Program-made: the position numbers and the translations under genes
The notes under the pieces: generated by a model
Told to the model about the DNA's origin: nothing
Seen by the model: only the letters and a program-made list of their open reading frames with translations
Databases searched by the model: none
Shown: one piece after another, positions 1,491 through 64,000 of the stretch
Layout of the letters: every line of letters begins with the position of its first letter
Numbering within the stretch: the stretch's first letter is position 1
Source: Schmidtea polychroa
Taxonomy: Eukaryota
Assembly (NCBI GenBank): GCA_044892525.1
Contig: CM097885.1
Location: forward strand, 19,842,001 to 19,906,000
Direction of reading: 5' to 3'
Length of the DNA: 64,000 bases

Positions 1491-3370
1491 ATGGATATAA
1501 GATTTTTTTATCAAAAAAGAAAAAAAAAGGATGAAAGTGAAGCAGGACCCAGCAAAGATGTTAACACCAGTGATGCGAATACTTTGAAAATATTAAATCT
1601 AACTAAGCGAAGTCGTACTTTTCGGGAAGAGAAAAGAAAGTTTCATAAAGAATGGGAAGATATGTATTTGATTGTGCAAAATGAGAATGTACAAGACCAC
1701 ATAGTTGCCGTTTGCGTGATTTGCAAAACTGAAATTAATCAAATTAAATAATATGCTATGGAACGGGCATTATAAGAATCATAAAGATGAAGTACAACAA
1801 AAATGGCCCACCCCAAGTTTACGAAGAAATTTAATAGAAAAATTTAGCACTGAACTTATTTTACAAAGAAAAGTAATAAGTACTTTTTAACACAAAATGA
1901 TTATTTCTATCTGGGATCTCTCAAAGTTAGTTATTTAATCGGAAAACATCGAAAGCCTTTCACAGAAGGTGAATTTATAAAATCTGTAGTTTTGGGAGTT
2001 GATCCTCAAAATAAACTATTTCGTAATTTGTCGCTAAGTAATGATACAGTTCAAAGAAGAATTAAAGAACTAGGAAAGTTCATAGGACTTGAAATAAGCA
2101 GATCCCTCAATAAAGTCCATTTTATAGTTTATGTTTGGACGAAAGTAATGATGTGACAAAAACCAACCAAATTTTAGTATTTGCAAGATATTTCGATGTT
2201 GAAAAAAGTGAATTTATTGAAAATTTATTGTGCCAGGCGCCATTGACAGATCGTCCGAATACAACTAATATTTATAATACAATTAAAGCGGACATGGTAA
2301 AGTTAAACGTATCAACGCACAACTTGTGTGCTGTAACGGCCGATGAAGCTGCGGTTATGAAGAGCGAAAGAAAAGGCGTATTGAATTCGTTCAACGAAGA
2401 CTCTGAAAATGAAATATTTCGTATGCATTGTATTGTGCATTAAGAAGTGTTAGTTAGCAAAACTGTTGTTAAATGTATGGAAGATGTAGAATTAACAGTA
2501 AGAAAAGTATTAAATGCAATTAATACCAGTAATAAATTATCGAACATATTTAGGTCCATTTGTGAAATCAACGACGAAAAACATAATGTGTTACTTAATT
2601 ATAACCACGTTAAATGGCTAAGTTTCGATAGTAGCGTTCAACGACTTTGTGAATTATATGATTATGTTACATCCACTTTGGCCGTAAACCATAAAGATTT
2701 AAGTGAAAAGCTTCAAAATAATTACATAAAAGGATCAATTTTATTCCTAAAGGATTGTTGCCACGTATTAGTTCAATTAATAAACAATTGCAAAGAAGAA
2801 ACTTAATAATAATAGAAAGCGTGTTAATTATAGATAAATTAAAAAACACCGCAAAAAGCCTTGTGACAGAAGTTGAAAACGACAATTTTTCGATTCTATT
2901 TTCTCTTAGTGATTTCCTAGATCAGGGGTCCTCAAACTGTTTTTAATAGGGACCCAGAAACCAGAAACTTGGTGACCCAATACAAAATTTTTTCCTTCTT
3001 TTGCAATCAACTTTATATTTACCAACTCCGACTAAAATTATTTGTGATCGCTAGATCGCGTTTTATATGGTGCAAATCGCAAATTAAAACTAGTAAACTA
3101 ATGCTCTCGTTTTGTTTGTAGCAGATTAAAAAGTCTGTGACGTAGTTTGTTTCATTTTTTTACAAATAGCATCCTCGCGACCCACCTGGGAAGTTTCCAC
3201 GACCCACATGCGGGTCGCGACCCATGGTTTGAGAATAGATGACCTAGATAACTTAGCAGACACGACTTCGAAATGAAAATTAAAGCATAAAATAATACAG
3301 AGTCTTCAATTATTAAATTTTGAACTTGATAAAAGATTCGAAGAATTGAATTTCTTAAAAACTGTTTCTT
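1491..3370 (+). pseudogene. hAT transposase pseudogene, N-terminal part (GTF2IRD2/ZBED5-like)
   Basis: RKFHKEWE..CVIC, LDESND..QILVFARY, TADEAAVM, HCIVH, VKWLS motifs; multiple stops and frameshifts; resumes after 14790 (FW..YKELA) and 15990 (CERSF). Confidence 0.8.
2923..3241. mobile_element. hAT-family MITE nested in the transposase
   Basis: Imperfect TIRs CAGGGGTCCTCAAAC / GTTTGAGAATAGATG; TSD TCCTAGAT/ACCTAGAT; GCGACCC subterminal motifs. Confidence 0.65.
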
Positions 3371-3790
3371 AGTAGGTAGATAGTAGCGTACCGCAGCAAC
3401 CCCCCCCCAGGGGGGGGGGGGGGGGGTTTCTGCTGCAACTTTTGATTACGCAATTTTTCAGACTATAGTGAGGGGGTCTCGATGGTCCTGGGATTTTCAA
3501 TACAAAAAAAATTTTTCAATACAAAAACGATGGTCCTGGGATTTTCAATACAAAAAAAATTTTTCAATACAAAAATCCGACTATCAATAAAAAAGTCAAG
3601 GATTTTTCAGACTATAGTGAGGGGGTCTCGATGGTCCTGGGATTTTCAATACAAAAAAAAAAATTTTTCAATACAAAAATCCGACTATCAATAAAAAAGT
3701 CAAGGATTTATCAGACTATAGTGAGGGCGTCTCGATGGTCCTCGGATTTTCAATACAAATAAAATTTTTTCAATACAAAAACGATGGTCC

Positions 3791-3995
3791 TGGGATTTTC
3801 AATACAAAAAGCTGGTCTACACTAAAAAAGCATGGTAATTTAAGGTCTCAGGATATTTTCAATACAAAAAGCTGGTCTACACTAAAAAAGCATGGTAATT
3901 TAAGGTCTCAGGATATTTTCAATACAAAAAGCTGGTCTACACTAAAAAAGCATGGTAATTTAAGGTCTCAGGATATTTTCAATACAAAAATCTGG
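3791..3995. repeat. 60-bp tandem repeat (~3.4 copies)
   Basis: Unit containing TTTTCAATACAAAAAGCTGGTCTACACTAAAAAAGCATGG repeated almost identically; left arm only. Confidence 0.9.
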
Positions 3996-4084
3996 TCTAC
4001 ACCAAAAAAGCCAAGGATTTTTCAGACTATAGTGAGGTGAGTCTCCTTGGTCCTGAGAAATATGTGGTCTACACTAAAAACGTG

Positions 4085-5000
4085 GTAAATTTTTCAATTA
4101 AAGTAAATAATGGTTCTAAAAAATTAAATTACAGTAAATAATGGTTCTAAAAATTAAATTACAGTAAATTATGGTTCTAAAAAATTAAATTACAGTAAAT
4201 TATGGCTCAAATTTTTAAATTAAAGTAAATTATGGTTCTAAAAATTAAATTAAAGTAAATTATGGCTCAAATTTTTCAATTACAGTAAATAATGGTTCTA
4301 AAAATTGAATTACAGTAAATAATGGTTCTAAAAATTAAATTAAAGTAAATTATGGTTCTAAAATATTAAATTAAAGTAAATAATGGTCCAGATGTTTCAA
4401 TTAAAGTAAATAATGGTCCAAATTTTAAAATTAAAGTAAATTATGGTCCTAAAAAATTAAATTACAGTAAATTATGGTCCAAATTTTTCTATTACAGTTA
4501 ATTATGGTCCTAAAAAATTAAATTAAAGTAAATTATGGTTCTAAAAATTAAATTAAAGTAAATTATGGCTCAAATTTTTCAATTACAGTAAATAATGGTT
4601 CTAAAAATTGAATTAAAGTAAATTATGGTTCTAAAAATTGAAATTACAGTAAATTATGGTCTAAAAATTAAATTACAGTAAATTATGGTCAAACATTTTA
4701 AATTAAAGTAAATAATGGTCCAAATTTTTCAATTACAGTAAATAATGGTCCTAAAAAATTAAATTACAGTAAATTATGGTTCTAAAAATTAAATTAAAGT
4801 AAATTAAGGTTCTAAAAATTAAATTAAAGTAAATTATGATCTAAATAAGTTAATTAAGGTCCAAATTTTAAAATTAAGTAATCAATGGTAAAAAATTTTA
4901 AATAAGTAAATTAAAGTAATAATTTTTAAATTAAGTAATCAATGGTAAAAAATTTTAAATAAGTAAATTAAAGTAAATTAAAGTAAGATTTTAAAATTTA
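4085..5000. repeat. ~30-bp AT-rich minisatellite
   Basis: ATTA(A/C)AGTAAAT(T/A)ATGGTTCTAAAAATTAA units; partly mirrored at ~14100-14500. Confidence 0.9.
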
Positions 5001-5239
5001 TTAACAAAAAGTTGAAATAATAGAAGGTGTTTGAGAATTGAAATTTTTTAATGAAGATTTTTATGAAATATTTTTCAATGGTAATTTTTTATGGAAATTT
5101 TTATGAAATATTTTTCAATGGTAATTTTTAATGAAAATTTTTATGAAATATTTTTCAATGATAATTTTAGATGGAAATTTTTAAGATAACTTTTAATGAA
5201 AAATTTTATGAAATATTTTTCAAAGACAAATTTTAATAA

Positions 5240-6622
5240 TAATTCAACAACAAACCAACAACTTAGTACCAACAACCAGTAACTTACGAACATGTAGTTA
5301 CAACCAGATACCTACAACTAGTTACTAACAACTAGTTACCTGCTACCAAGTACTTACAACTAGATACCACGTACTAACTAACTCTCAAACAACCAGATAC
5401 TTATAACCAATTACCACCTACCCATTAACTAGCTACAACCAGCTAACTAGGTACTAGATACCAAGTACTAACAACCAGTTACCAACTACTAAGTACCTAC
5501 AACCACCTACCCATTAACTAGCTACCAAGTACTTACAACTAGATACCACGTACTAACTAACTCTCAACCCCCACCTACCCATTAACTAGCTACCAAGTAC
5601 TTACAACTAGATACCACGTACTACCAACCGTCAACAACCAGGTACTAAGCCTTATCAACCTACAACTAGTTACTAACAACCAGTTACCTGATACCAAGTA
5701 CCAACAACCAAAAACATACAACCAACTAGGTACCAGATACCAACTAGCTACCAAGTACTAACAACCAACAACAACCAGGTACTAAGCATTAATTACCAAC
5801 TACTAAGTACCTACAACCTACAACTAGTTACTAACAACCAGTTACCTGATACCAAGTACTAACAACCCACAACAATTAGCTAACAACTAACTACCACCTA
5901 CCAAGTACCTACAACTAGATACTAACAACCAGTTACCCATTAACTAGCTACAACCAGCTAACAGCAACCAACCAACTACCAAGTACTAACAACCAAAAAC
6001 AAGCAACCAACTAGGTACCAAGCATCATCAACTAGATACCAAGTACCTACAACCAACTAGCTACCACCTACCAGTTAACTAGCTACAACCAGCTAACTAG
6101 GTACTAGATACCAAGTACTAACAACCAGTTACCAACTACTAAGCATTAATTACCTACAACTAGTTACTAACAACTAGTTACCTGATAGCAAGTACTTACA
6201 ACTAGATACCACGCACTAACTAACTCTCAAACAACCAGATACTTACAACCAGTTACCAACTACTAACTACCTACAACCACCTACCCATTAACTAGCTACA
6301 ACCAGCTAACTAGGTACTAGATACCAAGTACTAACAACCAGTTACCTGCTACTAAGTACCTACAACCACCTACTAAGTACCAACAACCGACAACAACCAA
6401 GTACTAAGCATTAATTACCACCTACCAAGTACTAACAACTAACTACCACCTACCCATTAACTAGCTACAACCAGCTAACTAGGTACTAGATACCAAGTAC
6501 TAACAACCAACTACCAAGTACCAAGTACTAACAACTAGCTACCACCTACCAAGTACCAACAATCAACTAACAACCAGGTACTAAGCACTGTCAACTAGAT
6601 ACCAAGTACTAACAACCAGATG
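5240..6622. repeat. strand-biased C/A-rich mosaic repeat (mirrored at 12460-13840)
   Basis: Shuffled words CAACTAG, TACCAAGTAC, TAACAACC, CTACCCATTAACTAG; very G-poor on the plus strand. Confidence 0.9.
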
Positions 6623-8415
6623 ACCACGTGAAATTATTAGTTAAATAGGTAAAATAATGTTTAATTTTTAAATTAACTAATCAATGATCTAAAATATTAA
6701 AGTTAAAGTCAATTTAAGATGCAAATCTTCGTCAATTAATCAATGACCACATGAAATTATTGGTTAAATATGAAAATAAGGATTATATTTAGTTGTTTAG
6801 TAAATTATGGTGTAAAATTAAGAAATAAAGAATAATTAGGTAAATTAAGGATAAGTAAATTAAAGTTAAAAATTTTAAATAAGTAAATTAAGGTTCAAAA
6901 TTTTAAATTAAAGGAAACAATGGTTTAAATTTTAAATTAAAGCTAAATGAGTAAATTAAAGTAATAATTTTTAAATAAGTAATGTAATAAGTAAATTAAA
7001 CTAAAATTTTTAAATTTATTAACAAAAAATAGAAGGTGTTTGAGAATTGAAAGTTTTTAATGAAAATTTTTATGAAATAATTTTTAGGATAATTTTTATT
7101 TAAAAAAGAAATTAATTTATTACCAGTTATATACTTTAAAACTTTTTTATGGAATAAGACAAAAATTTTGTTGTATAAGTCCTTTAATATTGTAATAATT
7201 ATTTATTAATAAATTTATTATTCTACACTAAATATTTCAAAAACAATTATCATATTATTAATTATATTACTCCTTTCAATAAAAATAAGATAAATATTCA
7301 AATAAATGACTTATAAAATACAATTAAAATTAAATTCTTTACACTAAATTTAAAAATATAAGTTTTATAAGAAAATGTGAATAAGAAATTGATTTATTAA
7401 CAGTTATAGACTTCTTAAACTTAATGATGAAATTAGGTAATAGAAAGTAATTTTTCTTTTTAAAAAGTCCTTTAATATTGTATTCTATTCATTATTAAAT
7501 TTACTATTTTACACTAAAATATTTTAATTTAGAAAAAAAAAATCATCATAATATTGAATATAATACTTCAATCAAAATAAGTTAATACTCAAATATATGT
7601 CTTATAAAATACAATCAAAATTAAATATTTCACTAAATTTTAAGTAAAGTTTTTTAAATTCTCAAATAAATGTTAACACGATATTAATTTATTAATCATT
7701 ATATACTTTTTAAACTTATTATTGGAATAAAACAATAGAATGATATTGAAAATATATACAATTTAAAAATACAATAAAAATTAAATTACATACTAGGTAA
7801 AATGTTGGTAAAATCCCGTTCACAGCTTGTTATGCAATAAACTAGTCATGGCTTGTTACGTAATAAAATAGTTTAAATTACATATCCTTCTCACTTATAT
7901 TCCACCGATTCTCATTATCCCACTATTTAATCTCCTATATTCCCCCGATTTCCACTATTTAATCATTTGTATTCCCTAGAATTTCCATTAATTATTCACT
8001 TATATTCCCCGATTCTCTATTTTCCATTAATTAATCACTAATATCCCCCCGATTTTGATTAATTATTCCCCACAAATATTTGTTTTAAAAGTTTTTTTTA
8101 TTAAATTTATGAATTTTATGAAATAATTTTAAATAAATTCAATATATTTACATTTTTATCAACCTTCTTCTTATCTATGCCACTTCTCATTATTTACCTC
8201 CATTAATGAATTATTCTACCAATTATTTTCACCCATTTGAATTTATCATCGAGTAATGAATAATTTCCTCACTTTAATGATTCTTACCACCTTCATTGTT
8301 AATTTTATCAAAGTTTAAAGAATATTTCTCTTTACATTGCTTACCACTTTAGATTTTTTATCGAAATTTATGATAATTTGACTAATTCAATGAAAAATGA
8401 GTTAATTAATATATA

Positions 8416-11400
8416 CTCTGAGTTTATCCGACAAAATATTCTGTCCCCCTATGGGTATTGCTCACAAGGGTACTACTCACATTCAACATGTCGCAAGGGT
8501 ATTAGTCGTAAAGGTATTTAATGTTTTTATTTGAATGATTATTTAGGCAAATTTGATGTTTAAGGCATTGATAATTTTTAGAGTTGATGGTTTTATTCAA
8601 GTAAATTTCTATCTTTTTTGTGAATTTCTATCATTTTTATGAATTTCTATCATTTTTATGAATTTCTATTATTCTTGTGGATTTTTATCATTCTTGTGAA
8701 TTTCTATCATTCTTGTGAATTTTTATCGTTTTTTGTGAATTTTTATCAATTTTGTGAATTTCTATTATTTTTGTGAATTTCTATTATTTTTGTGAATTTC
8801 TATTATTTTTGTGAATTTTTATCGTTTTTTGTGAATTTCATGTTTATTGAATGAATATTTAAAGTTAGTTCTATGATAAATTTAATTAATTTCTTGATAA
8901 TTAGTTGTATTTTATTGAATAGTTTTTAAATAAAAATTAATTTCATTGACAATTAGGTTAATAATTAAGTGATTTTTGATGATAACTTTGTAATGTATTT
9001 GACTAAATAATGTTTTCAATATTTTTCTAAGAATATTTACTCATTGATGAACTTTAAAAAACATAAGCTAAGAAACCAGTTAACTTACTTGAAAATGATT
9101 GTAGTTTGCTATTATTGCTTGAAAATGATTGGTTGAATCGATGAAGAATTATGATCAATCAATATATATCATCTCCAGTATTTGATGGTAAATATTTGTA
9201 GAAAATATTGATTTTTGATCTTTTAGTGAACTCTTACTACATAGCTACTAAATTATTTCAATGGAAGAATATTTGGTGTCTATAACAATTAAGTCATATT
9301 TTTGAAGTTCTTTAAAGATTTTAAGACTGAATTGAATTAAAGGAGGATTCAAGTGGGTAGAATTGAAGGATATATTCGGTTAGATGTTTAAAAGGGTAGA
9401 AATATTTGCTGAGAGATCGGTTAAGATGGGATATTGTTGGTTAGATTTAATGAGAGGTCGGTTAAGATGGGGAAAATATGATCTTTTAAGGGGATATAGT
9501 CGGTTAGATTTAATGTGAGATGGGTTAAGATGGGAATATATTATTGTGAGGGAGATATAGTCGGTTGCTTTTAATGAGGGAAGGGTTTCGATGGGAATAT
9601 ATGATTTTTTAAGGGTGATGTTGGTAAAATATCAATGTTTTTTAAGGAAATTGCAATACATTAGTCAGTTATGAATCAATAATAATTATATCGTTTTATT
9701 AGGTTGTGATTAATGCATAGTAAATTATTTTAGAACAATGTTTTATTAAGTAGGGATAATGATCGATTTACTTGGTTTTGACGATGAAAACTTTACAGAT
9801 AATTGGGATTGATATCAACTTTAAATTATTTTTATCTTTATTTAGACGGACAACGACAAAAGTTGAGAAATATTGATTTAAAACATCGACAACTAAATAA
9901 AATTGATCTTTATTGGAAGAAATCTTGATTTTAATTAGTAATTAAATCGGTTGAATATCGGTAAAATGATCATTTGAAGAAATATATTTTATTGAATGGA
10001 TAAATTTAATCTTTCAATGGGACCTAGTCAGTTATATTTATTTTAAATTTCGAGTACAGTGATTTACAAAAATTTACAGTGATTAACAAAAATTTTATTA
10101 TAACCGGTTTTGTCATTAGATTTTATAAATTCTTTAGGGTTAATGATTTTACATGTTTTATAAGGAAATATTCGTGATAATAGGAATTAAAGTTAGAATT
10201 ATAGTCATTTAAAGGGATTTTAAGCAATCTTATTAGTCAGAGGTAAATATATAACCTTTTAAGGATATTTATCGATAAAATACTAATCTTTAAAGATATA
10301 GTTATTTCAGGGAAATTTGATGCTTTTTAGATGATTTTAGTGAAATATTTGTAATAATACGAATTAAGGGTAGAAATATAGTCATTTGAGGGATTTTAAG
10401 GAATCTTGTTAGTTCGAGGTGAATATATGATCTTTAACAAGTACTTATCGATAAGATACCAATCTTTAAATATTGATATATTTCAGGGAAAATGATTCTT
10501 TTTAGATGATTTTATTAGAGAATTCGCTTGAATATACCAATTATTTAAATGAATTTACTGGTTTATTAGATGTTATCATTAGTTATCTAGTCTCTTTTGG
10601 AATTTAATGATAATTATTTTTATTGTAGATTGCTGACTTTGATAATTTTAATGAATTCATACTGATTTTTTGAATATATTGAGGAATTAGTAAATAGATT
10701 TGAGTACATGTATTACTTTTAAAAAAATAGTTAAAATTAATTTTATTTCAAATAATTTATTCAATCTAAATCAATTATCTACTAGATCTTATCTTATTAA
10801 TTTATTATCTTAGTTGATTCAACTTGAATGATCAGCATTTTTTTTTATTTATTGGATGATTAGAATTTTTTCTTGTCCATTAATTAAATTTTTATGATAT
10901 TTATTTCGAATAATTTAAATTTTTTACAATAATTTAATCAATTTTTATCAAGTTATTGATGCCTTGAGTTCAATTAATTTTCCATCTAATTTTTCAAGTG
11001 ATGAGTATTTGCTTTTAAAGATCAATTTGTTAGTACATAGTTGTTGGTTGTAAGTAGTTGGTTGACTTTTTAGATTTTGATAAGAAAATAGTGTATGTGA
11101 TGAAGAGTATTTTGTATTTAATTGCTATTATTTTTATGTGTGGTTAGTTGATTGTTGGTACTAAGTTGTTGGTATCTTGTATATGGTAGTTGGTACAGTG
11201 TTGTTTATTGATTGTTGTTATATAGTTGTAGGTTGATATTTGTTAATTTCTCGATGGGTTTTGATGGTGGTTGTTAGTAGTTGGTATCAGGTAACTGGTT
11301 GTTAGTACTTAGTAGCTAGTTAATGGGTAGGTTGTGGTTGAGTGTTACCAATACCCCTAGGACTAGTACCTTGACGACCAGTACCCTTGCGACCAGTACC

Positions 11401-11453
11401 CTTACGACCTGTACCCTTAGGGGGTCAAAACATCCTGTCGGATAAACTCAGAG
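8416..11453. mobile_element. nested ~3-kb TIR element, non-coding
   Basis: CTCTGAGTTTATCCGACA (8416) / TGTCGGATAAACTCAGAG (to 11453), flanked by TATA; ~15-bp GTCGCAAGGGTACT-like subterminal repeats in inverted orientation at both ends. Confidence 0.65.
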
Positions 11454-11874
11454 TATATATAATAAAACTGATCAACAATAAGTATTTATTGAATGCAATT
11501 TTTACATTGCAATAATAAGTCAGTAGTTATCATTTAAAAGAAGAATGTTTTGTAAATTAGAATTCATTAGTCTTTCATTGTAATTTAAATTATTTTGAAT
11601 TTCACGTGGTGATGAGTTGTGGTTTTTTGATGAAAATCAACATTTTTGTTAAATTTGAAAAGGTTTTTCTAATGATTTTAATTAAATATATTTTTGTAGA
11701 TAGATAAAAAATTAATTTAAAAAGCATTTCATAAAATACAGTGAAGAATATTTAGTAGTTAGTTGTAAGTATCTGGTTGTTTGAGAGTTAGTTAGTACGT
11801 GGTATCATGTTGTAAGTATTTGTTAGCACCTAGTTAAAAATATTTAGTAACCGATTGTTGGTAACTGTTGAATT

Positions 11875-11905
<31 letters not shown>

Positions 11906-14900
11906 TTATTATTTTTATTATTATTATTCCATTAAAATTTCCATTAAAAATTAACTTAAAAAATATTTCATAATAATTTTCATTAAAAATTATCCTAAAA
12001 ATTATTTCATAAAAATTTTCATTAAAAAATTTCAATTCTCAAACACCTTCTATTTTTTGTTAATAAATTTAAAAATTTTAGTTTAATTTACTTATTACAT
12101 TACTTATTTAAAAATTATTACTTTAATTTACTCATTTAGCTTTAATTTAAAATTTAAACCATTGTTTCCTTTAATTTAAAATTTTGAACCTTAATTTACT
12201 TATTTAAAATTTTTAACTTTAATTTACTTATCCTTAATTTACCTAATTATTCTTTATTTCTTAATTTTACACCATAATTTACTAAACAACTAAATATAAT
12301 CCTTATTTTCATATTTAACCAATAATTTCATGTGGTCATTGATTAATTGACGAAGATTTGCATCTTAAATTGACTTTAACTTTAATATTTTAGATCATTG
12401 ATTAGTTAATTTAAAAATTAAACATTATTTTACCTATTTAACTAATAATTTCACGTGGTCATCTGGTTGTTAGTACTTGGTATCTAGTTGACAGTGCTTA
12501 GTACCTGGTTGTTAGTTGATTGTTGGTACTTGGTAGGTGGTAGCTAGTTGTTAGTACTTGGTACTTGGTAGTTGGTTGTTAGTACTTGGTATCTAGTACC
12601 TAGTTAGCTGGTTGTAGCTAGTTAATGGGTAGGTGGTAGTTAGTTGTTAGTACTTGGTAGGTGGTAATTAATGCTTAGTACTTGGTTGTTGTCGGTTGTT
12701 GGTACTTAGTAGGTGGTTGTAGGTACTTAGTAGCAGGTAACTGGTTGTTAGTACTTGGTATCTAGTACCTAGTTAGCTGGTTGTAGCTAGTTAATGGGTA
12801 GGTGGTTGTAGGTAGTTAGTAGTTGGTAACTGGTTGTAAGTATCTGGTTGTTTGAGAGTTAGTTAGTGCGTGGTATCTAGTTGTAAGTACTTGCTATCAG
12901 GTAACTAGTTGTTAGTAACTAGTTGTAGGTAATTAATGCTTAGTAGTTGGTAACTGGTTGTTAGTACTTGGTATCTAGTACCTAGTTAGCTGGTTGTAGC
13001 TAGTTAACTGGTAGGTGGTAGCTAGTTGGTTGTAGGTACTTGGTATCTAGTTGATGATGCTTGGTACCTAGTTGGTTGCTTGTTTTTGGTTGTTAGTACT
13101 TGGTAGTTGGTTGGTTGCTGTTAGCTGGTTGTAGCTAGTTAATGGGTAACTGGTTGTTAGTATCTAGTTGTAGGTACTTGGTAGGTGGTAGTTAGTTGTT
13201 AGCTAATTGTTGTGGGTTGTTAGTACTTGGTATCAGGTAACTGGTTGTTAGTAACTAGTTGTAGGTTGTAGGTACTTAGTAGTTGGTAATTAATGCTTAG
13301 TACCTGGTTGTTGTTGGTTGTTAGTACTTGGTAGCTAGTTGGTATCTGGTACCTAGTTGGTTGTATGTTTTTGGTTGTTGGTACTTGGTATCAGGTAACT
13401 GGTTGTTAGTAACTAGTTGTAGGTTGATAAGGCTTAGTACCTGGTTGTTGACGGTTGGTAGTACGTGGTATCTAGTTGTAAGTACTTGGTAGCTAGTTAA
13501 TGGGTAGGTGGGGGTTGAGAGTTAGTTAGTACGTGGTATCTAGTTGTAAGTACTTGGTAGCTAGTTAATGGGTAGGTGGTTGTAGGTACTTAGTAGTTGG
13601 TAACTGGTTGTTAGTACTTGGTATCTAGTACCTAGTTAGCTGGTTGTAGCTAGTTAATGGGTAGGTGGTAATTGGTTGTAAGTATCTGGTTGTTTGAGAG
13701 TTAGTTAGTACGTGGTATCTAGTTGTAAGTACTTGGTAGCAGGTAACTAGTTGTTAGTAACTAGTTGTAGGTATCTGGTTGTAACTACATGTTCGTAAGT
13801 TACTGGTTGTTGGTACTAAGTTGTTGGTTTGTTGTTGAATTATTATTAAAATTTGTCTTTGAAAAATATTTCATAAAATTTTTCATTAAAAGTTATCTTA
13901 AAAATTTCCATCTAAAATTATCATTGAAAAATATTTCATAAAAATTTTCATTAAAAATTACCATTGAAAAATATTTCATAAAAATTTCCATAAAAAATTA
14001 CCATTGAAAAATATTTCATAAAAATCTTCATTAAAAAATTTCAATTCTCAAACACCTTCTATTATTTCAACTTTTTGTTAATAAATTTTAAAATCTTACT
14101 TTAATTTACTTTAATTTACTTATTTAAAATTTTTTACCATTGATTACTTAATTTAAAAATTATTACTTTAATTTACTTATTTAAAATTTTTTACCATTGA
14201 TTACTTAATTTTAAAATTTGGACCTTAATTAACTTATTTAGATCATAATTTACTTTAATTTAATTTTTAGAACCTTAATTTACTTTAATTTAATTTTTAG
14301 AACCATAATTTACTGTAATTTAATTTTTTAGGACCATTATTTACTGTAATTGAAAAATTTGGACCATTATTTACTTTAATTTAAAATGTTTGACCATAAT
14401 TTACTGTAATTTAATTTTTAGACCATAATTTACTGTAATTTCAATTTTTAGAACCATAATTTACTTTAATTCAATTTTTAGAACCATTATTTACTGTAAT
14501 TTTTTTTGTATTGAAAATCCCAGGACCATCGTTTTTGTATTGAAAAATTTTTTTTGTATTGAAAATCCCAGGACCATCGTTTTTGTATTGAAAAATTTTT
14601 TTTTGTATTGAAAATCCCAGGACCATCGAGACCCCCTCACTATAGTCTGAAAAATTGCGTAATCAAAAGTTGCAGCAAAAAAAAGTTGCAGCAAAAAAAA
14701 AGTTGCAGCAGAACCCCCCCCCCCCCCGGGGGGGGGGGGTTGCTGCGGTACGCTACTATCTACCTACTATATATCTTTCTTTTTTCAGGTTATGAAAAAT
14801 GAAAATTTCGTAGAACTCCAAAAAAGGTTAATGTCATTTTCAATATTAAAATCAATTAACTGGGCTAACGTAAAATATGCATTATTGGAAATAAGGCACG

Positions 14901-15005
14901 ATAAATTAATTCAAGACCGTTTTAATAATAATAATGTACCAAAATTTTGGTCTGAGTTATACGTTGACGATGAATCAAGTCAGTATAAAGAATTAGCAAC
15001 AATTG

Positions 15006-15984
15006 TGTTGGGTTATTGAGTTGGTGATAAATTTAAATGTTACTCTGGCTCCAAGCGTGTCTTTATACGATTCACAAATAACACTTGACAACAGAAATCT
15101 TTATTGCTAATCACAAATAATCTTTCTCTTTACACTGGCAATAAATTCAACACTCTGCTTGGTGACTATACAATGCTTATTGCAACACTCGGTGAGGAAT
15201 AGCACTTGTGTATAACACCGGATTAAAAGATCACAAATTACTGATTGGTTTCTAAACTGGGATTTTGAGCTGGTTGTCTTCTTTGACTTTCTTCACAACT
15301 TTATTCAAATAATCAAATAACTTCTTCTCGTTTTATTTTTCAACTAATTCTTTTCTTCAACTATTCTCCAATAATTATTCTCCACAATTATTTCCTTTAC
15401 AATTATTTTTGACAATCGTTTGTCCAACAACGTTTCGTCCGACTTTGTCTAATTTTCTTCAATAATTTTATCTATCAAATCGTCTTTCAAATTGTCTCAA
15501 TGTCGCGTCACTTTTGTCTCTAATTTTCTTCTTCTTTCATGCCCACCAATTTTCCCTTATATAGTTCGCTTCTCTTGTGGCACTCCAGATAATCAAGTGT
15601 TTTCCATTTTCCTACTCCTGCTTTTCCCCCACTGTCCCATTTTTATCTCTGACAGCTGTCAAGTTATTTTTCCTTTTTTGTTTGACCGCCTTCTACCATC
15701 AATTCTATTATCACTGGCAAGCTGTCGAGATAAGGATATTGTTGTTTTTCTTTTTCCCCGATTTCAAAATTCCTTTTCCTTTTTATACTAATTAATTAGT
15801 ACTAACCTTGGTTTTCATTTTCCTGTTTGATTCCTTTTATTTCCTTTATCTTTCTCACTTTTAGTTTCTTTTTACTTCCGTTTTCTTTTCTGAGTTCCAA
15901 AAGATCGTCCCATTTGTCATGGCGATCTTCCCCCAGGTAATTTTATTTATTTCTTTATAAATTGTTATTTAGGTATCCTCAACA
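15006..15984. mobile_element. solo LTR (Gypsy-type)
   Basis: TGTTG...CAACA termini, 4-bp TSD ATTG; homologous along its length to 42983-43938. Confidence 0.8.
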
Positions 15985-16696
15985 ATTGCTTTATTATTTT
16001 TATCAATTTTCCCTACAATTGTATACTGCGAAAGATCTTTCATTGTAATGCAGTTCATAAAAAATAAGTATCGAAACCAACTGACAGACGAAAACTTAGA
16101 AGCGGCGATGCGACCTGCATTGGAAGAGAGAACTGTTGAACAATTTCCATTTGAATTAGTTTTAAATAAATAAAAATCAATATGCTTAAATGTTGTCTTT
16201 TATTGAATATATGCTTATAAGTTTATTCAATTTTGTGTAAATACAACTATTTTTACCAAAATCCATATTTGGTGCGGCCACGAGGCATTTCCATAAAACC
16301 ATTAATGCCTGTAATGCGGCCACAGCCAAATTTTAAGTGAGAACCACTGATCTATATTTACTTCTTTTTGTTAAAATAACAAATTTTATTGATATTGTAA
16401 TGCTAAATTTGGCGATTCAATTCTTGAGACGATAGAAATAATATTAGGGAATACCGTAATTGGATGAGAGAGGAAAACACAAAGATATATTTGTGTTGAC
16501 AAAGATCTACAGAACGGAGCCAAATAAATATCGAGTCAAGGTCAACCCAGAAAATAGATTATTGTATTATGATATGCTCAATGCTTAATCGAGTGATTAA
16601 CAGCATTTTTATCTATGTGACTCAATGAAGCTCTACATATTTTCATTGCCATTATGATTTGATAAAAATATTAATACAAAAACGCATATAGGAAAA

Positions 16697-16869: not shown

Positions 16870-17395
16870 ATAAAAGCTATTCTCAAGGTCAAAAACAAAA
16901 AAATCAAACTGATGATTTTATTGATCTATTCTTTAGTGTTGATTGTTGGCCATCTGTTTATGATGAGAATTGCTTTCTTAAATCTGATATTTTTTTGGAT
17001 GTTTTAATTCGCTAAGATTTTGATTGAAATATTTTTTCTTTCCTTCCTTGGTTGACATTGTTGGAGATGTCTGTTTACCGAGCATTTTCCACCGGGATCT
17101 AGATGTTCTATAACTCTTTGGTGCAAGGTCCTGAGCGTACTTCCAATGGATATTTCCTTGCATACATTGCACGTGATGCAATAGACAATGTTTTTTCTAA
17201 AGCACATATCTTTCGGTGCCTGGCAGTTTTCCATTGTGTAATTGTTTTCTCTATTTGTGTTGTTTGCCAAAGCTTTTCTCAAGGTCCAAGATTTCTGTGC
17301 TATACGAATTGGAAGGCCGATGCGATTAAGTTATTTAAGGATCTTGAAGTTGAGTATGTATTATCATTTAATTGTTTAAAATGCAATCAATGCTG
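16870..17395 (-). pseudogene. Penelope-like retroelement GIY-YIG endonuclease fragment
   Basis: CFRKNIVYCITCNVCKEISIGSTLRTLHQRVIEH matches the Penelope GIY-YIG EN pattern (VY.ITC..C...YIG.T.R.L..R..EH). Confidence 0.8.
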
Positions 17396-18403: not shown

Positions 18404-49166
<30,763 letters not shown>

Positions 49167-51808: not shown

Positions 51809-53359
51809 TATTACAATTAATATTATTTATTATTATTAAAATTTTTATTTATTATTATTATTATTTATTACAATTAATATTATTTATTATAATTATTTTA
51901 ATATTATTTAATATTATTTATTATTATAAAATTTTTATTTATTATTATTATTATTATTTATTATAATTAATATTTATTAATATTATTATTTTATTAATTA
52001 ACTCTGTGATATTTAGTTAGCTATAATTAGATTCGTTTTTTAATTTATTTCGTTTTTAAATTAGTTTCACCGTAAAATAAATGAATAAAATAAATAATAA
52101 ATGTCTATGATAAACAGTTGTAATCGTATTAATTATATTTTATAGGGAAATATTTAAAACGTAAAACAAATCTGAATTAATTTACAAAGGATTGCAATAT
52201 GTGAAAGAAACAGATTTTAGAAAAGCTAAAATATTGTACTAGTGGAATGAAAATTAAAATCTTATTGCTAGTTTTGCGCTTGGGTTCCCGGGGATCCGCT
52301 TACCAGATAAAGTTCATTCTCTAGGTTACACTTTCCAACCATTTATCAAGCGATTGTACCGTTCTCATGAGATAAATTGAACATTCCCCTCGCGATAGAA
52401 TGAAATAACTGATATTTAACATTTAATTCTCTTTACATTTCTTATGAAAATATGAATTATAATCAATAAATTACCGGTTTAATCAATATGGAAAAACAAT
52501 CCATAAATCTCAAGTTAAAATAATGATTATAAATTTATAAACTAATTCACTGAACCTGTTGACAAATAAAACTGATTTCCCCCAATTTCGACCTTCAATC
52601 AAATTTATCAAATAATCCTTATCATCATTTGGTAGGTTCAAATCATCAACAATATGTAGATCGTCTTGAAATAATTTTATTGACAAGGTCGATGTTAATC
52701 CATGGAGTCTAGTACCGATTGGAAGAACAGAAAAGTATGCACGCGGTCCCATAGGTCCTTTAACTTGAGCCCCACCGATAAACTGAGGTGCAGTTCGATC
52801 TCCATGTCGAGCTCTGCCTGTTCCCTTTTGAGGCCACATTTTTTTTCCAGTTCTATTAACTTCAGGGCGAGTGGTAATTTTTCGCCAATCCTAGATATAA
52901 CATTTTTTTAGGAATTTAAAACTCTTAAATGTCATCTTACAACAAATCTATAAACTCCTTGCCAACGTAAATTCAGATTAATTAAATCTAATCGTGGAAA
53001 AGTTCCAAAAATATCAGGATGAAGATCTAGCAGTCCTAATTTCCGATCTTCAGGACATTTAAGTGTTTCTAACCAAGCTTGTTTGGGCTTAACATGCGAA
53101 TTTGAACAAGAAACTGATTCCAATAGGTCGCGTTTTACTATGGATGGTACAACAGGTGGTAATTCACATGGTTCTTCGTAATTGTCATTTTCATTAAAAT
53201 TCGTATTGGTATTTTGATTAGAGATTATTGATGAGGTTTTCAAAGACCGAAAGGTTGATAACTAATGTATAATTATAAATAAATAATTAATATCATTACT
53301 ATATTGATGAAACTTACAATTTTAAATTCACGATTGCTTAATTTAAATATTTTTATCAT
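51178..53359 (-). CDS. MRPL4: mitochondrial ribosomal protein L4 (uL4m), 4 exons, ~334 aa
   Basis: Exons 53359-53318, 53261-52941, 52890-52556, 51484-51178; QAWLETL..LGLLDLHPDIF..PRLD, KMWPQKGTGRARHG..APQFIGG..GP, QDDLHIVD, RNWG.SVLFV, NVWSLIKYDTVILT. Confidence 0.92.
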
Positions 53360-54764: not shown

Positions 54765-54849
54765 AAAGCAAAAAAAACGAGTTGCCGCAATTTTTCATCC
54801 CCTCCAACGCTGGGGGGTAATTGCGGCAGTGGGCTACTAACTACCTACT
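54765..54849. mobile_element. remnant right terminus related to the 3371-14768 element
   Basis: AGTTGCCGCAA..CCCC..GGGGGG..TTGCGGCAG..GCTACTAACTACCTACT resembles 14700-14768. Confidence 0.5.
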
Positions 54850-56129: not shown

Positions 56130-56700
56130 ACTACTGACTACACAGGGATTTCTTGCTATGATTAAATAAGTAGAAGTGCAATGGAGCCAAATTCGAACTG
56201 TAGGGAAGAATAAAGAGCGCGTTAAGTCCTTAAATCTCAATAGCGACCATTGAAACTGCGCTTTTGTGGATGAAACCGTTATTGAGTGAGAAGTAGATCC
56301 CATATACCCTGAGTTTCTTTCGGAGCTTTCTTGTTCCTTGCACAAGTTTAAAGTAATAGGAGCTGTTAATTTGAACATCAGTTTCTGCTAAATTATCCAG
56401 AATAATGTCATTGGCATCCCAAAACTCTGTCAACATGAGCTCTTTTCAATGACTTGTTTATGACCTCATTTTCTCAGAACAAACCTCTCTAGGCAGTTTA
56501 CACTTTTCAGATTCCCGTTTAGACTGTGGAACATATAGTGAAAGTATTATCTCATACATGATAATACAATTATCCAAAAAACTCTCTACAACGTCGTCCA
56601 AAATCGGAATGTTCTCTTCGCAGCACTGCAGACGTCGATTTTGTATTTCAGTAGATGAAATGTGGTAAGAAGCGAGAGCATGATTTTTGTTGCACTTTCA
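56130..56700 (-). pseudogene. mariner transposase remnant
   Basis: MLTEFWDANDIIL..INSSYY..H.SAVSM..LPYSSNLAPLHFYLF, a degenerate MLTVFWD..YSPDLAPSDF pattern. Confidence 0.7.
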
Positions 56701-56845
56701 CTGAATAATGTCTAAACAGTGCCAAACAGTCTAAACAGAAAGGAAGAGATGGAGGTCAAAGGAAGATGTCAGGGGGAAGAATTCAAAGAAATACTTATCA
56801 ATAAATAAAAGATGTGTATCAACCAAGGAACGTACATCAAAGACA

Positions 56846-59007
56846 ATGGGAAACAATATAACAGAAGAGATATTGCAGCTATCAAGTATGACCCTAACCC
56901 TAACCGCCCCATTATTGGTATTTCCAGACTTCAGAAAAGAATTTATATTAGACACAGACGCCAGCTTCGATACTATTGGAGCAGTTCTTTCGCAAAAGGA
57001 TGAAAAAGGACATGAACATGTCATTGCATATGTTTCATGCAAAACATGTTTACAGTGTATGATGGAACATGAAGATCCAAAAACCGGCAAAATTAAAACC
57101 AAAATTTTAACAGTAACAGCAGAAGGCGGATATAACGAGTGGCAAAATGACAATGTGGAGGTCCAAGAAATAAAGAGTAAGTTAGAAAATAAAGATTGTA
57201 AATTCATGATGGAAAACAACACGGTACTAACTAAGCAAGGTAAAATATGGATACCATCAGATAATAGACAAAGGATGATAAAAGAAGTACGCATTGCTGT
57301 GCCATGCAGGTACACAGAAAGTAACGAAATATATCCAAAATAATTTTGACATTGAAAATCTAGCAACGGAAGTAAAAGGGGTAATTGAGAACTGCGAAAG
57401 ATGTCAGAAAATGAAAACGATAACAACCAAGACAAAGGAGGAAACTCAAACAATAAAGAGTAGTGAACCATTCGAGAAAATATATATGGACATATGTGGG
57501 CCATTGAAAGAAATGTTCAATAAAAAGAAATATATTTGCGGAATCATTGACCACTATAGTAAATACATCTCATTAACGGCCATAAACAAGCAAGGCGAAA
57601 AAACAATTAGTGAGACTTTATTAAATAGATGGATATTAAAGTTTGGAGCTCCAAAAGAACTTCATGTAGATTGTGGGAAGAACTTTGAAGCAAGAAGTAT
57701 TAAAGAACTTGCAAAGGCAGGTGGTATTGAATTAATCTTCTCAAACCCATATCACCACAACACGAATGGTATTATTGAAAGACAGTTCAGAACAATCAGA
57801 GAGTATATTAACGCGTCATTGAATGTAGGAGGAAGAAAAAACTGGGCTGATTTAGTACCAGAAATAGAATATACTTTAAATGCAACAGTTTAAAAAACAA
57901 TGGGAGTAAGTCCAACAGAGATTATATTTGGAAGGAAAATCGACAGAATGAAATGGTACATGAATAAAGGAATAAATAGAGAGGATATGGAAAAAAGAAT
58001 AGAGGATAAAACATTAATGCCAAACGGAAGTAAACAGTGAGAAACTTGGAAATGGGAGATATGGTGTTGAATAATTTAACTGAATCTGACTATCAACAAC
58101 AATAATCGAAAGTGTTTCCACAATACTTTTGATTATTGTTGCTTTATTGGTCATATGAAAAATATCGTAGTTTTCCTGATTCGAAAAAACTAAATTAGGG
58201 TCTGTAAAATATTGCAGAATATCTCCTTTTCTCCTTTTTTGCTGCATATTAAGGGTTTTTTTAATTCAGTGCTTAAAAAATTATTTTGTTTAGACAATTC
58301 ATCCAACATAAATTTTAACGTTACATCGGCTACATATAAATTAGTATTTTCTTTAGATAGGGTTTCCACAGCTACCTTGATGGGTTGCAAATTTGTGATT
58401 ATGTGACAGTAATTTTAATTCTCTGTCAATGAAATCAAACTAGAATTTTAAATCAATCAAACTTTTTCGGACAGCATCTTTAAGTAATAAAAATCTCTCC
58501 CAAATATATAATAAACTATTCCACCTGGTTTTACAATCTAAAATTAAACAAAGCTCTTTCCCAATGATTTCTTTTACATACTTTTGTAATAAATTATTTT
58601 TGGTTGCCGATTTTCTATAAATTCTTACTATCTGCCGTATTTTTGTTATTAAACAATTTATTTCATCATTTTGAAGAACAAGTTGAAAAGATTCAGTTGC
58701 TTCTTGATATATATATAAATTAATGATCATATTCACTATCGGAAATATCAGAATAAAATTTCAGAATACAAATTTCTATCAAGGATTTTTGATTTACCGA
58801 ATTTACCGGTAAATGTACCGTGTTTTTTACTGATATACAATCCCTAGTGTTGATCAAACAAGAAATTAGAAATAAAGACAAAGCAAGATGGGAAGGGCCG
58901 TACAAAATGATAAAGAAAATACATGAACGAGCTATTTACTTAAAGATCAAAATGGGAACACGATAGTTAGAAATGTTGAGAAGATCAAACATTTAAAAAA
59001 AGGGGGA
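56846..59007 (+). pseudogene. Gypsy/Ty3 pol remnant (RNase H, integrase), interrupted by a hAT fragment; PPT then LTR start
   Basis: FILDTDAS..IGAVLSQ, H..C..CQ, MDICGP, HVDCG, PYHHNTNGIIER, WEGPY; PPT AAAAAAAGGGGGA followed by TGT at 59008. Confidence 0.85.
58080..58840 (-). pseudogene. hAT transposase fragment
   Basis: LILDCKTRWNSLLYIWERFL and PIKVAVETLS motifs. Confidence 0.75.
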
Positions 59008-62166: not shown

Positions 62167-64000
62167 TAGGGGTTTTTAAAAACAGTACTTTTCAAAAAAA
62201 AACATCTGTTACTGTTTTAAATTTTCAAAAAAACAGGTGATAACAGCTGTTTTTACTGTTTTTATTTTTCTTGAATTTTACAAATAAAAAAATAACTATT
62301 TTAACTATTTTATCTTGGTACAAAAATTTGTGCATATCGAAAATACACGTTCAACATCAGTTGGTTTTATGCAAAGAAGTGCGTCATATAATTTTTGCAG
62401 ATTTTCTGTTCTTTTCCCCGATATTCTTGAAAAGCATGAATTCTGATTTGAGCCACCTGACAATTCTTCTTTCTGGAGTAACATATTCAATTCATTCTGC
62501 AGCGATAGATTTTCATTTTCATCAATATTCGGTGACTCTTGAGCTACTTCATCTACATCATCATTGACTCCAAAAGGACGAGAGGTTAAATTGCCTGCAA
62601 AAGTAATAGTGGCCTTTAATGGAATGATTGCGGGATCCCTGAGGCTTTGTAATAACTTCATAACGTCCTCATTATCTCGCTCATTTACAAGAATTTTCAA
62701 ATTTTCTATGAGCTTATTATTAATGTCGCTGTTCAAATCAGAAAGTTTATTGAACATGAATTGTAATATTTTTTCAGCACTCGCTAAAGTTGCGTTCTCA
62801 TGACTTAAATTCTTAACAGCTAATTTAACGGGTTCCATGGCCTTGAGAAGTATTTTTAATGCAGAAAAGTCCAGTGCTTCTATTTTATCCAACGCCTTGA
62901 ATCCAGTTAAAGTTTCGCAAATCGCTGTTTCCGTCTTGATTAGTGGTCCAGTCATGGTGGGAATAGAATTCCTCGGGTCTTGATATCGAGATGAAGCTCC
63001 ATCTCACCGCCGAATTCATGCTTAACTTTGTTTTGAAAGAGATCGTTGCGAACTGTTGATTTCTTGATAAATCTCACAAATTTTCTTGAATTCTCTAGTA
63101 AGCCATGATAATCCACTTCTTCCTGTTCGATTTCATCATTGCTTATAATTTCCAAATCCATTCCATCATCGAAATTGTCAATTTCGTCGATCTCACAGCT
63201 ATCTAAGTAATGCTCTTCGAAATCTTCAACTCTTTTCTTATATAATATATCGCACACACCCAAGTGGATGCCATGATTAATACAAAATTGTCCAATAACA
63301 TCGACGTGACGAGTGTATTTTTTGTTTACAGCAGCTCCATTTTGCGTAGAACCCACAATATCTTTGCGCATATTGATACCAAATTCAGCTATATGTCGTT
63401 TCATTGTTTCAACCATTTCAAGAGCAGAACATGAGACAAGCGTACGCACAAGACCAGTTCTTAATGTTGTTTTGTCAACACTTCTATGAAAATTTATACC
63501 AAAAAATCGTCTTCTTCTCACGGTGGTATATTCGTCAACAGTCAATACTGTATTTTGCTCCATTTTTGAGTTTTTTCCTGGATGCTGTCAATCATTGAGT
63601 TTCTTCTTTCATTGTAATCCTCGTGGACTAATTTCATGACATCACATTCTGTTCCTGGAAGTTTGTATCCATTTTTTCCTGGATGCTGTCAATCATTGAG
63701 TTTCTTCTTTCATTGTAATCCTCGTGGACTAATTTCATGACATCACATTCTGTTCCTGGAAGTTTGTATCCATCTCGAGAAATTGATTGCTTGATATAAC
63801 TATTTCTAGTTATAGTTCTGTTGCGAGGTCTGAGATGATTTCTTTTAAACTTTTTCCGTATAGAAAATCTTCAATTCTCTCTGGTCTCTTTTCTTCTACT
63901 GGCTTTTCTGATGCTTTTTGAGTAGTTTTATCGGCATTGATGCATGAGTCATGAGATGTTTCTTTAATGTTGTGGTAGACTAGCCTGAACACTTGATAAT
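62167..64000 (-). pseudogene. hAT transposase pseudogene, truncated by the window edge
   Basis: LTVDEYT, CINHGIHL, LDIKTR, KPTDVERVFS; frameshifts and a ~100-bp tandem duplication at ~63572-63773. Confidence 0.8.

What the first reader, a model, noticed from the sequence alone, without database searches (positions are those of the whole stretch)
3371..14768. 11.4-kb gene-less element with Polinton-like AGTAG ends and 2.8-3.7-kb near-identical inverted arms
Seen: exact 30-bp terminal inversion, a terminal GCAGCA-C(n)/G(n)-TGCTGC hairpin, and arms built from several repeat tiers that mirror each other almost base for base. The ORF track has no ORF between 4040 and 11844. The element splits a hAT transposase, with a possible 6-bp TSD (TTTCTT, offset 7 nt on the right). 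Known: AG(T)...CT ends and 6-bp TSDs are Polinton integrase hallmarks. Inference: a non-autonomous satellite or defective-interfering Polinton-like DNA, close enough to helper size to be replicated and packaged in trans; otherwise a new giant foldback family.
Basis: partly seen in the sequence, partly recalled or inferred. Interest (0 to 1): 0.7.

Follow-up and report, generated by a model that had tools for sequence, protein, structure and literature searches.

The report
Gene-less giant foldback lacking Maverick footprint
This is a real 11.4-kb gene-free mobile DNA with two long mirror-image arms and ends resembling those of virus-like Maverick transposons, but this copy did not leave the 6-base duplication that Mavericks leave, so which enzyme moves it is still open.

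Summary
The element is real: 3371-14768, a 38-bp exact terminal inversion, a C/G hairpin at each end, arms of 3.7 and 2.8 kb (2,525 bp with 4 mismatches), no gene, and highly repeated in three public runs of one organism. It sits inside a dead hAT transposase.

A homologue spanning the junction gives a net insertion of exactly 11,398 bp, so nothing was duplicated, or only TA if the true ends lie one base inward. A diverged solo end at 54849 keeps the motif and hairpin, and all three ends have T outside. A gene-bearing Maverick 7 kb away has a perfect 6-bp duplication and shares only 9 of the first 11 bases.

Best reading (0.5): a gene-less passenger of another Maverick family, with this copy inserted atypically. 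Rivals: a giant TA-targeting foldback (0.3), or a hybrid of the two (0.12). Membership of Polinton/Maverick fails on this copy, and packaging is untested. The scan has already noted gene-less Maverick-ended foldbacks six times in this genome and twice elsewhere (unchecked notes); none matched this sequence.

The parts
3371..14768 (.). Whole gene-less foldback element, 11,398 bp (11,396 bp plus a TA duplication if the ends are read one base inward)
3371..7105 (+). Left arm, 3,735 bp
11977..14768 (-). Right arm, 2,792 bp; lacks the equivalents of 3576-3628 and 3659-4580
3393..3436 (+). Left subterminal C/G hairpin, 22 bases inside the end
   Evidence: z -3.65
14705..14746 (-). Right subterminal C/G hairpin
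   Evidence: z -5.48
3480..4011 (+). Outer tandem tiers (48-, 104- and 60-bp units)
4096..4857 (+). 30-bp tier, about 25 copies (about 9 copies remain in the right arm, 14237-14502)
5245..6620 (+). C-rich degenerate tier; the left arm holds 13 matches (up to 4 mismatches) to the terminal 16-mer, all in the orientation opposite to the end; mirrored at about 12462-13837
   Evidence: 2 matches in 36,641 background bases, one of them the solo end
7106..11976 (.). Non-mirrored, non-coding core, 4,871 bp
8416..11453 (.). Nested unit with an 18-bp exact inverted end, subterminal repeats and TA runs on both sides; probably an older TA-type element
   Evidence: loose ends at 8409 and 8411 in run X12
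1992..3370 (+). Host: decayed hAT-type (FAM200A-like) transposase, part left of the insertion
14769..15016 (+).
   Evidence: hAT dimerisation domain at 15973-16170
54767..54849 (-). Diverged solo end of the same clan (same terminal motif with one change, hairpin kept, T outside); similarity may reach 54716; no partner end in the window
21881..37841 (.). Neighbouring gene-bearing Maverick used as the comparison: 15,961 bp, AGTAGT ends, perfect 6-bp TSD, about 1.06-kb TIRs; not shown to be the helper

Best explanation
The element is a non-autonomous, gene-less linear DNA that rides on Maverick/Polinton enzymes, most likely those of a Maverick family other than the neighbour at 21881-37841. Shown: the anatomy, the absence of genes, repetition in the organism, insertion into an old hAT, and a diverged relative that keeps the terminal motif and hairpin. 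Inferred: a displaced single strand folds back through its arms into a racket, which rebuilds a double-stranded end for the helper's protein-primed polymerase. Copying through that stem keeps the two arms nearly identical while the unpaired core drifts. The inverted copies of the terminal motif inside the arms would be extra binding sites for an end-binding protein. Most copies would be integrated by the helper's integrase with 6-bp duplications. This copy would be an exception: captured at a break without duplication, or having lost one copy of the duplication. Packaging is possible by size only and is not shown.
For: The first 11 bases match the neighbouring Maverick at 9 positions, including the first five. 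Only 8 of 8,541 background TA sites reach 9 of 11, and none of those starts AGTAG. The arms are built like that Maverick's TIRs: tiers of tandem repeats, with 0 substitutions in 1,057 aligned bases plus indels there, against 4 in 2,525 plus indels here. An apparently young helper-type element lives in the same window. Of the 40 variant rows shown (386 in all), 30 fall in the core and 3 in the arm (binomial 4e-4), which hints that the arms are closer to the family majority than the core; the rows were pre-selected as best supported. The racket model is described in PMC4196379 (passages). Polintons lacking polB that stayed mobile are reported in 10.1101/2025.02.07.637071 (passages).
Against: There is no 6-bp TSD, and the net insertion equals the element's length. 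All three ends in the window have T outside, whereas the Maverick's ends have C and A. The chance of three T's is about 0.05 at 37% T, and two of the three belong to one insertion. The end is AGTAGG, not the (AGT)2 or (AG)3 motif of PMC8097293 (section 7). It fails the Repbase rule (same TSD length, at most 1 mismatch in positions 1-11; PMC4455052 passage). There is no DNA or protein similarity to the neighbouring Maverick beyond the tip (best blastn E 0.013, best tblastn E 0.032 among 45 frames), and shared 7- and 8-mers stay within the control range in all 8 segments. The hairpin is absent from that Maverick's end (z -0.49). No gene-bearing element with AGTAGGTAG ends was found.
Confidence: 0.5

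Rival explanations
1. A giant non-autonomous foldback of a TA-duplicating cut-and-paste superfamily (most likely IS630-Tc1-mariner). The true ends lie one base inward (GTAGG...CCTAC), the TSD is TA, the 'Polinton' A is the A of that TA, and the internal copies of the terminal motif are transposase-binding sites.
For: It explains the zero net duplication exactly and the T outside all three ends, in a TA-rich target. TA duplication is diagnostic for mariners (passages of PMC7357744 and PMC8969392). Aphid mariner TIRs listed in PMC5490172 begin CGAGGC or CGAGGT, with AGG at positions 3-5 as here (a weak lead). A mariner-type transposase remnant lies at 56233-56445, and a TA-flanked unit is nested in the core and shares the C-rich tier.
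Against: The 9-of-11 match to the Maverick tip must then be chance (about 1 in 1,000 TA sites). The longest TIRs of this superfamily in the passages I read are about 460 bp, against 2.8-3.7 kb here. That such transposases lose efficiency with element length is recalled, not looked up. No transposase linked to these ends was found.
Confidence: 0.3
2. A hybrid: ends derived from a Maverick and copied by its protein-primed polymerase, but inserted at TA or without duplication by a different enzyme (a TA-specific transposase or a recombinase).
For: It is the only reading that takes both the Maverick-like tip and the T^A, zero-duplication site at face value. The hairpin, kept with one compensatory pair in the diverged end, has no counterpart in the neighbouring Maverick.
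Against: It rests on one full insertion and one solo end. I found no precedent in the searches made, and no candidate enzyme. The compensatory change is 1 pair of 6 in 3 sequences (160 of 500 shuffles reach it).
Confidence: 0.12
3. An assembly fold-back artefact or a one-off local inverted duplication.
For: No listed contig piece spans the structure (longest aligned piece shown about 217 bases), and no long reads were seen. Polishing can inflate arm identity (own knowledge).
Against: The arms differ by indels of 53, 922 and 31 bp. A 4.9-kb core is not mirrored. The flanks are not mirrored and continue one hAT frame to the base. Core, arm and tip are covered by tens to hundreds of thousands of variant contigs in three runs from two studies. 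A diverged second end exists in the window.
Confidence: 0.04

Closest known systems
Maverick/Polinton self-synthesising elements (PMC8097293 section 7 and passages; PMC10748475 and PMC8969392 passages; Kapitonov and Jurka 2006 not read)
   Same: AG...CT termini, long TIRs built of tandem tiers, size just under the 12.7-24.6 kb range of intact vertebrate elements, and a gene-bearing member in the same window with a 9-of-11 tip match.
   Different: No genes; arms of 2.8-3.7 kb against 46-1,447 bp; end AGTAGG rather than (AGT)2 or (AG)3; no 5-8-bp TSD on this copy; a subterminal C/G hairpin.
Non-autonomous Polintons: polB-less insect polintons (10.1101/2025.02.07.637071, passages), Tlr1 as sometimes viewed (PMC5499653, passage), Repbase Polinton-N entries (recalled, not checked)
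   Same: Dependence on enzymes supplied in trans.
   Different: The first two keep several genes and are recognisable derivatives of a gene-bearing element. This one has no gene remnant and no detectable parent.
Long-TIR Tc1/mariner relatives and their MITEs (aphid LTIR elements, PMC5490172 passages; C. elegans Tc6-type palindromes, recalled)
   Same: TA-compatible site, inverted ends, no coding capacity in the derivatives.
   Different: About 5 times longer than the 2.3-2.4-kb LTIR elements, arms 6-8 times longer, and no linked transposase found.
Drosophila Foldback-type elements (named in a PMC6431247 passage; structure recalled)
   Same: Long inverted arms of internal tandem repeats that differ in length between the two sides, around a variable loop.
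   Different: Their longer TSDs and transposase superfamilies (recalled) do not fit a site with zero or two duplicated bases.

Membership tests
Polinton/Maverick (incl. non-autonomous) | 6-bp (5-8-bp) target site duplication | tested here: not met
   Flanking 6-mers differ; net insertion 11,398 = element length. The control Maverick in the window has a perfect 6-bp TSD.
Polinton/Maverick (incl. non-autonomous) | 5'-AG...CT-3' termini | tested here: met
   but the first A can equally be read as part of a TA duplication
Polinton/Maverick (incl. non-autonomous) | Terminal short tandem motif (AGT)2 or (AG)3 | tested here: not met
   End reads AGTAGG in all three ends; motifs from PMC8097293 section 7, defined on vertebrate elements
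Polinton/Maverick (incl. non-autonomous) | Repbase rule: same TSD length and at most 1 mismatch in positions 1-11 against a classified element | tested here: not met
   2 mismatches against the one Maverick available, and a different TSD length; other Maverick families of the genome could not be compared
Polinton/Maverick (incl. non-autonomous) | Long terminal inverted repeats | tested here: met
Polinton/Maverick (autonomous) | pPolB, integrase, ATPase, protease and capsid genes | tested here: not met
Polinton/Maverick (incl. non-autonomous) | An autonomous partner with the same ends in the genome | not testable with these tools
   No genome held; collection scans empty or chance
Polinton/Maverick (incl. 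non-autonomous) | Protein-primed replication, packaging | not testable with these tools
   needs bench observation
IS630-Tc1-mariner (non-autonomous) | TA target site duplication | tested here: inconclusive
   Fits exactly if the ends lie one base inward; cannot be told from a blunt insertion on one full copy and one solo end
IS630-Tc1-mariner (non-autonomous) | Ends shared with a DD(E/D) transposase-bearing element | not testable with these tools
   A mariner-type remnant at 56233-56445 has no recognisable inverted ends; no genome held

The most novel reading that the evidence does not exclude
A clan of gene-less foldback elements of 11 kb or so with Maverick-like tips and a conserved subterminal hairpin that are copied by Maverick polymerase but inserted at T^A without the 6-bp duplication: a parasite that draws on two different mobile systems, or a Maverick lineage with a different integration chemistry.
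Probability: 0.12. Interest if true: 0.8.

Novelty: new variant of a known kind. Interest (0 to 1): 0.5.

Why it matters
How Mavericks replicate and integrate rests largely on a model (the single-stranded racket intermediate). A gene-less, high-copy element that is more than half mirror arm would be a natural test of it: arms should stay matched while the core drifts. The missing 6-bp footprint adds a sharp question that one genome-wide table can settle. If most copies lack it, then either Tc1/mariner-type enzymes move 11-kb foldbacks with arms far longer than any I found described, or Maverick-like ends can be coupled to another insertion chemistry. Either way, classifying such elements as Polintons from AG...CT ends alone would be unsafe. 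If most copies have 6-bp duplications, this is one more family of a class the scan has already noted repeatedly.

Tried and rejected
No whole genome was held, so copies, TSDs and partners could not be tabulated.

Terminal patterns found nothing in viral contigs or metagenome contigs, and the nested unit's end found nothing in metagenome contigs. A shorter pattern gave 6 viral loci, none with the hairpin behind it; these were taken as chance. A 350-aa Maverick frame found no relative in viral contigs. Rfam gave 0 matches.

Two further searches for full-length hAT relatives across the junction found none, so the zero-duplication result rests on one spanning homologue (P0006) plus the reading frame. 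P0005 is not collinear left of the junction and P0004 starts beyond it. The Atlas look-up of P0006 gave only sub-0.9 leads.

No RNA holder was listed. The loose ends at 14768, which would have shown other copies' flanks, were not among the 24 rows shown (7,541 hidden). Small-share runs that I did not lay are not used as evidence.

Look-ups of three stretches of the element in the scan's own notes found no look-alike in this genome, and a word look-up for a TA/mariner foldback found none. One search was mis-indexed by three columns and was replaced.
Full report
1. The observation. The element runs from 3371 to 14768. Its ends are an exact inversion over 38 bp, 39 with the outside T and A. A hairpin starts 22 bases in on each side and folds better than all 200 shuffles (z -3.65 and -5.48). 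Global alignment gives a left arm of 3,735 bp and a right arm of 2,792 bp. A 2,525-bp block has 4 mismatches; the right arm lacks 53 bp and 922 bp and has 31 + 1 extra bases. The arms are tiers of 48-, 104-, 60- and 30-bp units and a degenerate C-rich tier. No frame of 100 aa lies between 4040 and 14663. The core's longest frame (83 aa) is ordinary for its composition (34 of 100 shuffles). None of 23 short frames from the element reaches a Pfam cut-off, and Rfam finds nothing.

2. The insertion site. The left flank is a decayed hAT-type transposase, 54-67% identical to three FAM200A-like or unnamed proteins. Its dimerisation domain lies at 15973-16170. A search of 1.84 billion representatives with the right-hand piece gave 4 hits, 3 of them relatives; one, P0006, spans the junction. 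Placed without gaps, its residues 1-17 sit at 3319 (9 of 17 identical, score 48 against 4 for the next placement), and residues 18-40 put residue 18 at 14768 (13 of 22 identical, 59 against 12). The net insertion is therefore 11,398 bp, the element's exact length. The 13 bases in question are host coding sequence. A perfect 6-bp TSD is also excluded directly, because the flanking 6-mers differ. Two descriptions fit and cannot be told apart on this copy: AGTAG...CTACT ends inserted between T and A with no duplication, or GTAGG...CCTAC ends with a TA duplication. The result rests on one spanning homologue plus the frame; two more searches found no other.

3. It is a repeated family. No genome was held. 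Of 24 runs listed for the core, 20 hold part of it and 4, all from one study, hold half or more of its words. I laid 4 of the 24 on 7100-15400 (core, right arm, right flank). Runs X1, X2 and X5 (organism A, two studies) gave 278,302, 44,198 and 44,068 contigs, with all 30 bins covered and many variants. The hAT flank at 14896 is covered by a single contig in each. Summed depth is not a copy number, X1 may be the source sample, and no piece shown spans the structure, so the two-armed form of other copies is not shown. Run X12 (organism B) covers parts of the core heavily, has no depth at 7654-8207, and shows loose ends at 8409 (8 contigs, mixed) and 8411 (46 contigs, one flank). This fits the nested unit at 8416-11453, which has an 18-bp exact inverted end and TA runs on both sides, having a boundary of its own. 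Of 386 variant rows, 40 were shown: 30 in the core, 3 in the arm and 7 in the flank (binomial 4e-4 for core against arm). The rows are pre-selected, so this is a hint that arms are nearer the family majority than the core. Loose ends at the tip were among the 7,541 rows not shown, so other copies' footprints were not obtained.

4. A second end. A search of the window for the terminal 16-mer gave 11 matches against 0.14 expected. Two are the ends themselves, eight lie in the C-rich tier, and one is a solo end at 54849 on the minus strand. The solo end is 72-77% alike over 52-85 bp (E 1e-5), folds a hairpin at the same place (z -3.36), and keeps all 6 pairs of the outer stem with one compensatory change (not significant with 3 sequences, 160 of 500 shuffles). 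No partner end lies in the window. All three ends have T outside. With up to 4 mismatches the left arm holds 13 copies of the terminal 16-mer, all pointing opposite to the end, against 2 in 36,641 background bases.

5. The neighbour. A gene-bearing Maverick lies at 21881-37841: 15,961 bp, AGTAGT ends and a perfect 6-bp TSD. Pfam hits include an adenovirus-type protease, rve integrase with chromodomain, A32-type ATPase, TBP and a RING finger. Its 1,314-aa frame is taken as the polymerase from size and position; Pfam gave it only a weak endonuclease VII hit. Its TIRs are tiered repeats with 0 substitutions in 1,057 aligned bases plus indels. The element's first 11 bases match it at 9 positions; 8 of 8,541 background TA sites do as well, and none of those starts AGTAG. 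Beyond that there is nothing: no significant blastn or tblastn match, shared words within the control range and no hairpin. It is a useful control, not a demonstrated helper.

6. Mechanism. Best reading (0.5): a gene-less passenger of Maverick enzymes. The racket model, as summarised in PMC4196379 (passages), has a single strand fold back through its TIRs before polymerase copying. Long arms would favour that step and keep the two sides matched. This is inference; the adenovirus panhandle parallel is my own knowledge (only a reference title was seen). The reading must treat this copy's site as atypical: capture at a break, or exact loss of one duplicate, which the TA run on the right would make a little easier. 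My rough estimate is that the sequence evidence alone is about even between this and the TA reading. What tips it is prior expectation, and that comes largely from the scan's unchecked notes on six gene-less foldbacks with Maverick ends in this genome, three of them said to have 6-bp duplications. Those notes are leads, not support, and none matched three stretches of this element by sequence. Rival (0.3): a TA-duplicating foldback, which explains the site and the three T's outright but must write off the tip match and needs arms far beyond the 460 bp seen in PMC5490172 (passages). Hybrid (0.12): both at face value. Artefact (0.04).

7. Membership. It is not filed as a Polinton/Maverick. The TSD, the (AGT)2 motif (PMC8097293, section 7 and passages) and the Repbase end rule (PMC4455052, passages) were tested and not met on this copy. 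It may still work like a Maverick passenger. Tc1/mariner membership is inconclusive.

8. Novelty. Six library searches listed no paper whose title or abstract start describes gene-less multi-kilobase foldbacks with Maverick ends, or TA foldbacks of this size. Most subscription papers and Repbase are outside the library. Non-autonomous Polinton entries in Repbase are recalled, not checked; Kapitonov and Jurka 2006 and Pritham et al. 2007 were not read. Passages were also read in 10.1101/2025.02.07.637071 (polB-less polintons that stayed mobile, TIRs of about 2 kb), PMC6431247, PMC5499653, PMC10748475, PMC7357744 and PMC8969392. One flatworm genome preprint, 10.64898/2025.12.11.693146, reports Maverick expansion, with 0 occurrences of palindrom, foldback or inverted repeat in its main text; it is cited as context only and the organism here was not identified. 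No supplements were read; those of preprints are closed and could hold repeat libraries that include this family.

9. Verdict. The element is real, repeated and gene-less. New variant of a known kind, interest 0.5.

Noticed in passing
window 21881-37841: Young gene-bearing Maverick with a perfect 6-bp TSD and substitution-free TIRs. It carries a TBP-like frame (34523-34867, Pfam E 7e-14) and a RING-finger frame overlapping the left TIR. Its integrase frame holds an in-frame run of about 29 AAT units at 32521-32608.
   Followed up: partly
window 54767-54849 (-): Solo diverged end of the same clan as the finding, hairpin kept, about 1.6 kb from a ribosomal protein L4-family gene piece (52513-52890).
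   Followed up: yes
window 8416-11453: TA-flanked unit with 18-bp inverted ends and 15-bp subterminal repeats, nested in the core. It carries the same C/G-skewed tier as the outer arms (11140-11347, 70-90% alike), which suggests shared history.
   Followed up: partly
window 2923-3241: hAT-type MITE of about 320 bp with a 7-of-8 target duplication, inserted in the same hAT transposase.
   Followed up: no
window 15006-15216 and 15703-15984: Another high-copy repeat interrupts the hAT right of the element; similar stretches lie at 42983-43188 and 43667-43938.
   Followed up: no
window 56233-57890: Mariner-type transposase remnant (Pfam Transposase_1) next to an LTR-retrotransposon RNase H and integrase fragment.
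   Followed up: partly
window 17004-17330, 19337-19525: Weak GIY-YIG (Penelope-like) and IS1595/Merlin-like transposase remnants.
   Followed up: no
window 38827-39142: Imperfect palindrome of about 315 bp (75% between its halves), possibly an old MITE.
   Followed up: no
window 63571-63773: Exact 102-bp tandem duplication.
   Followed up: no
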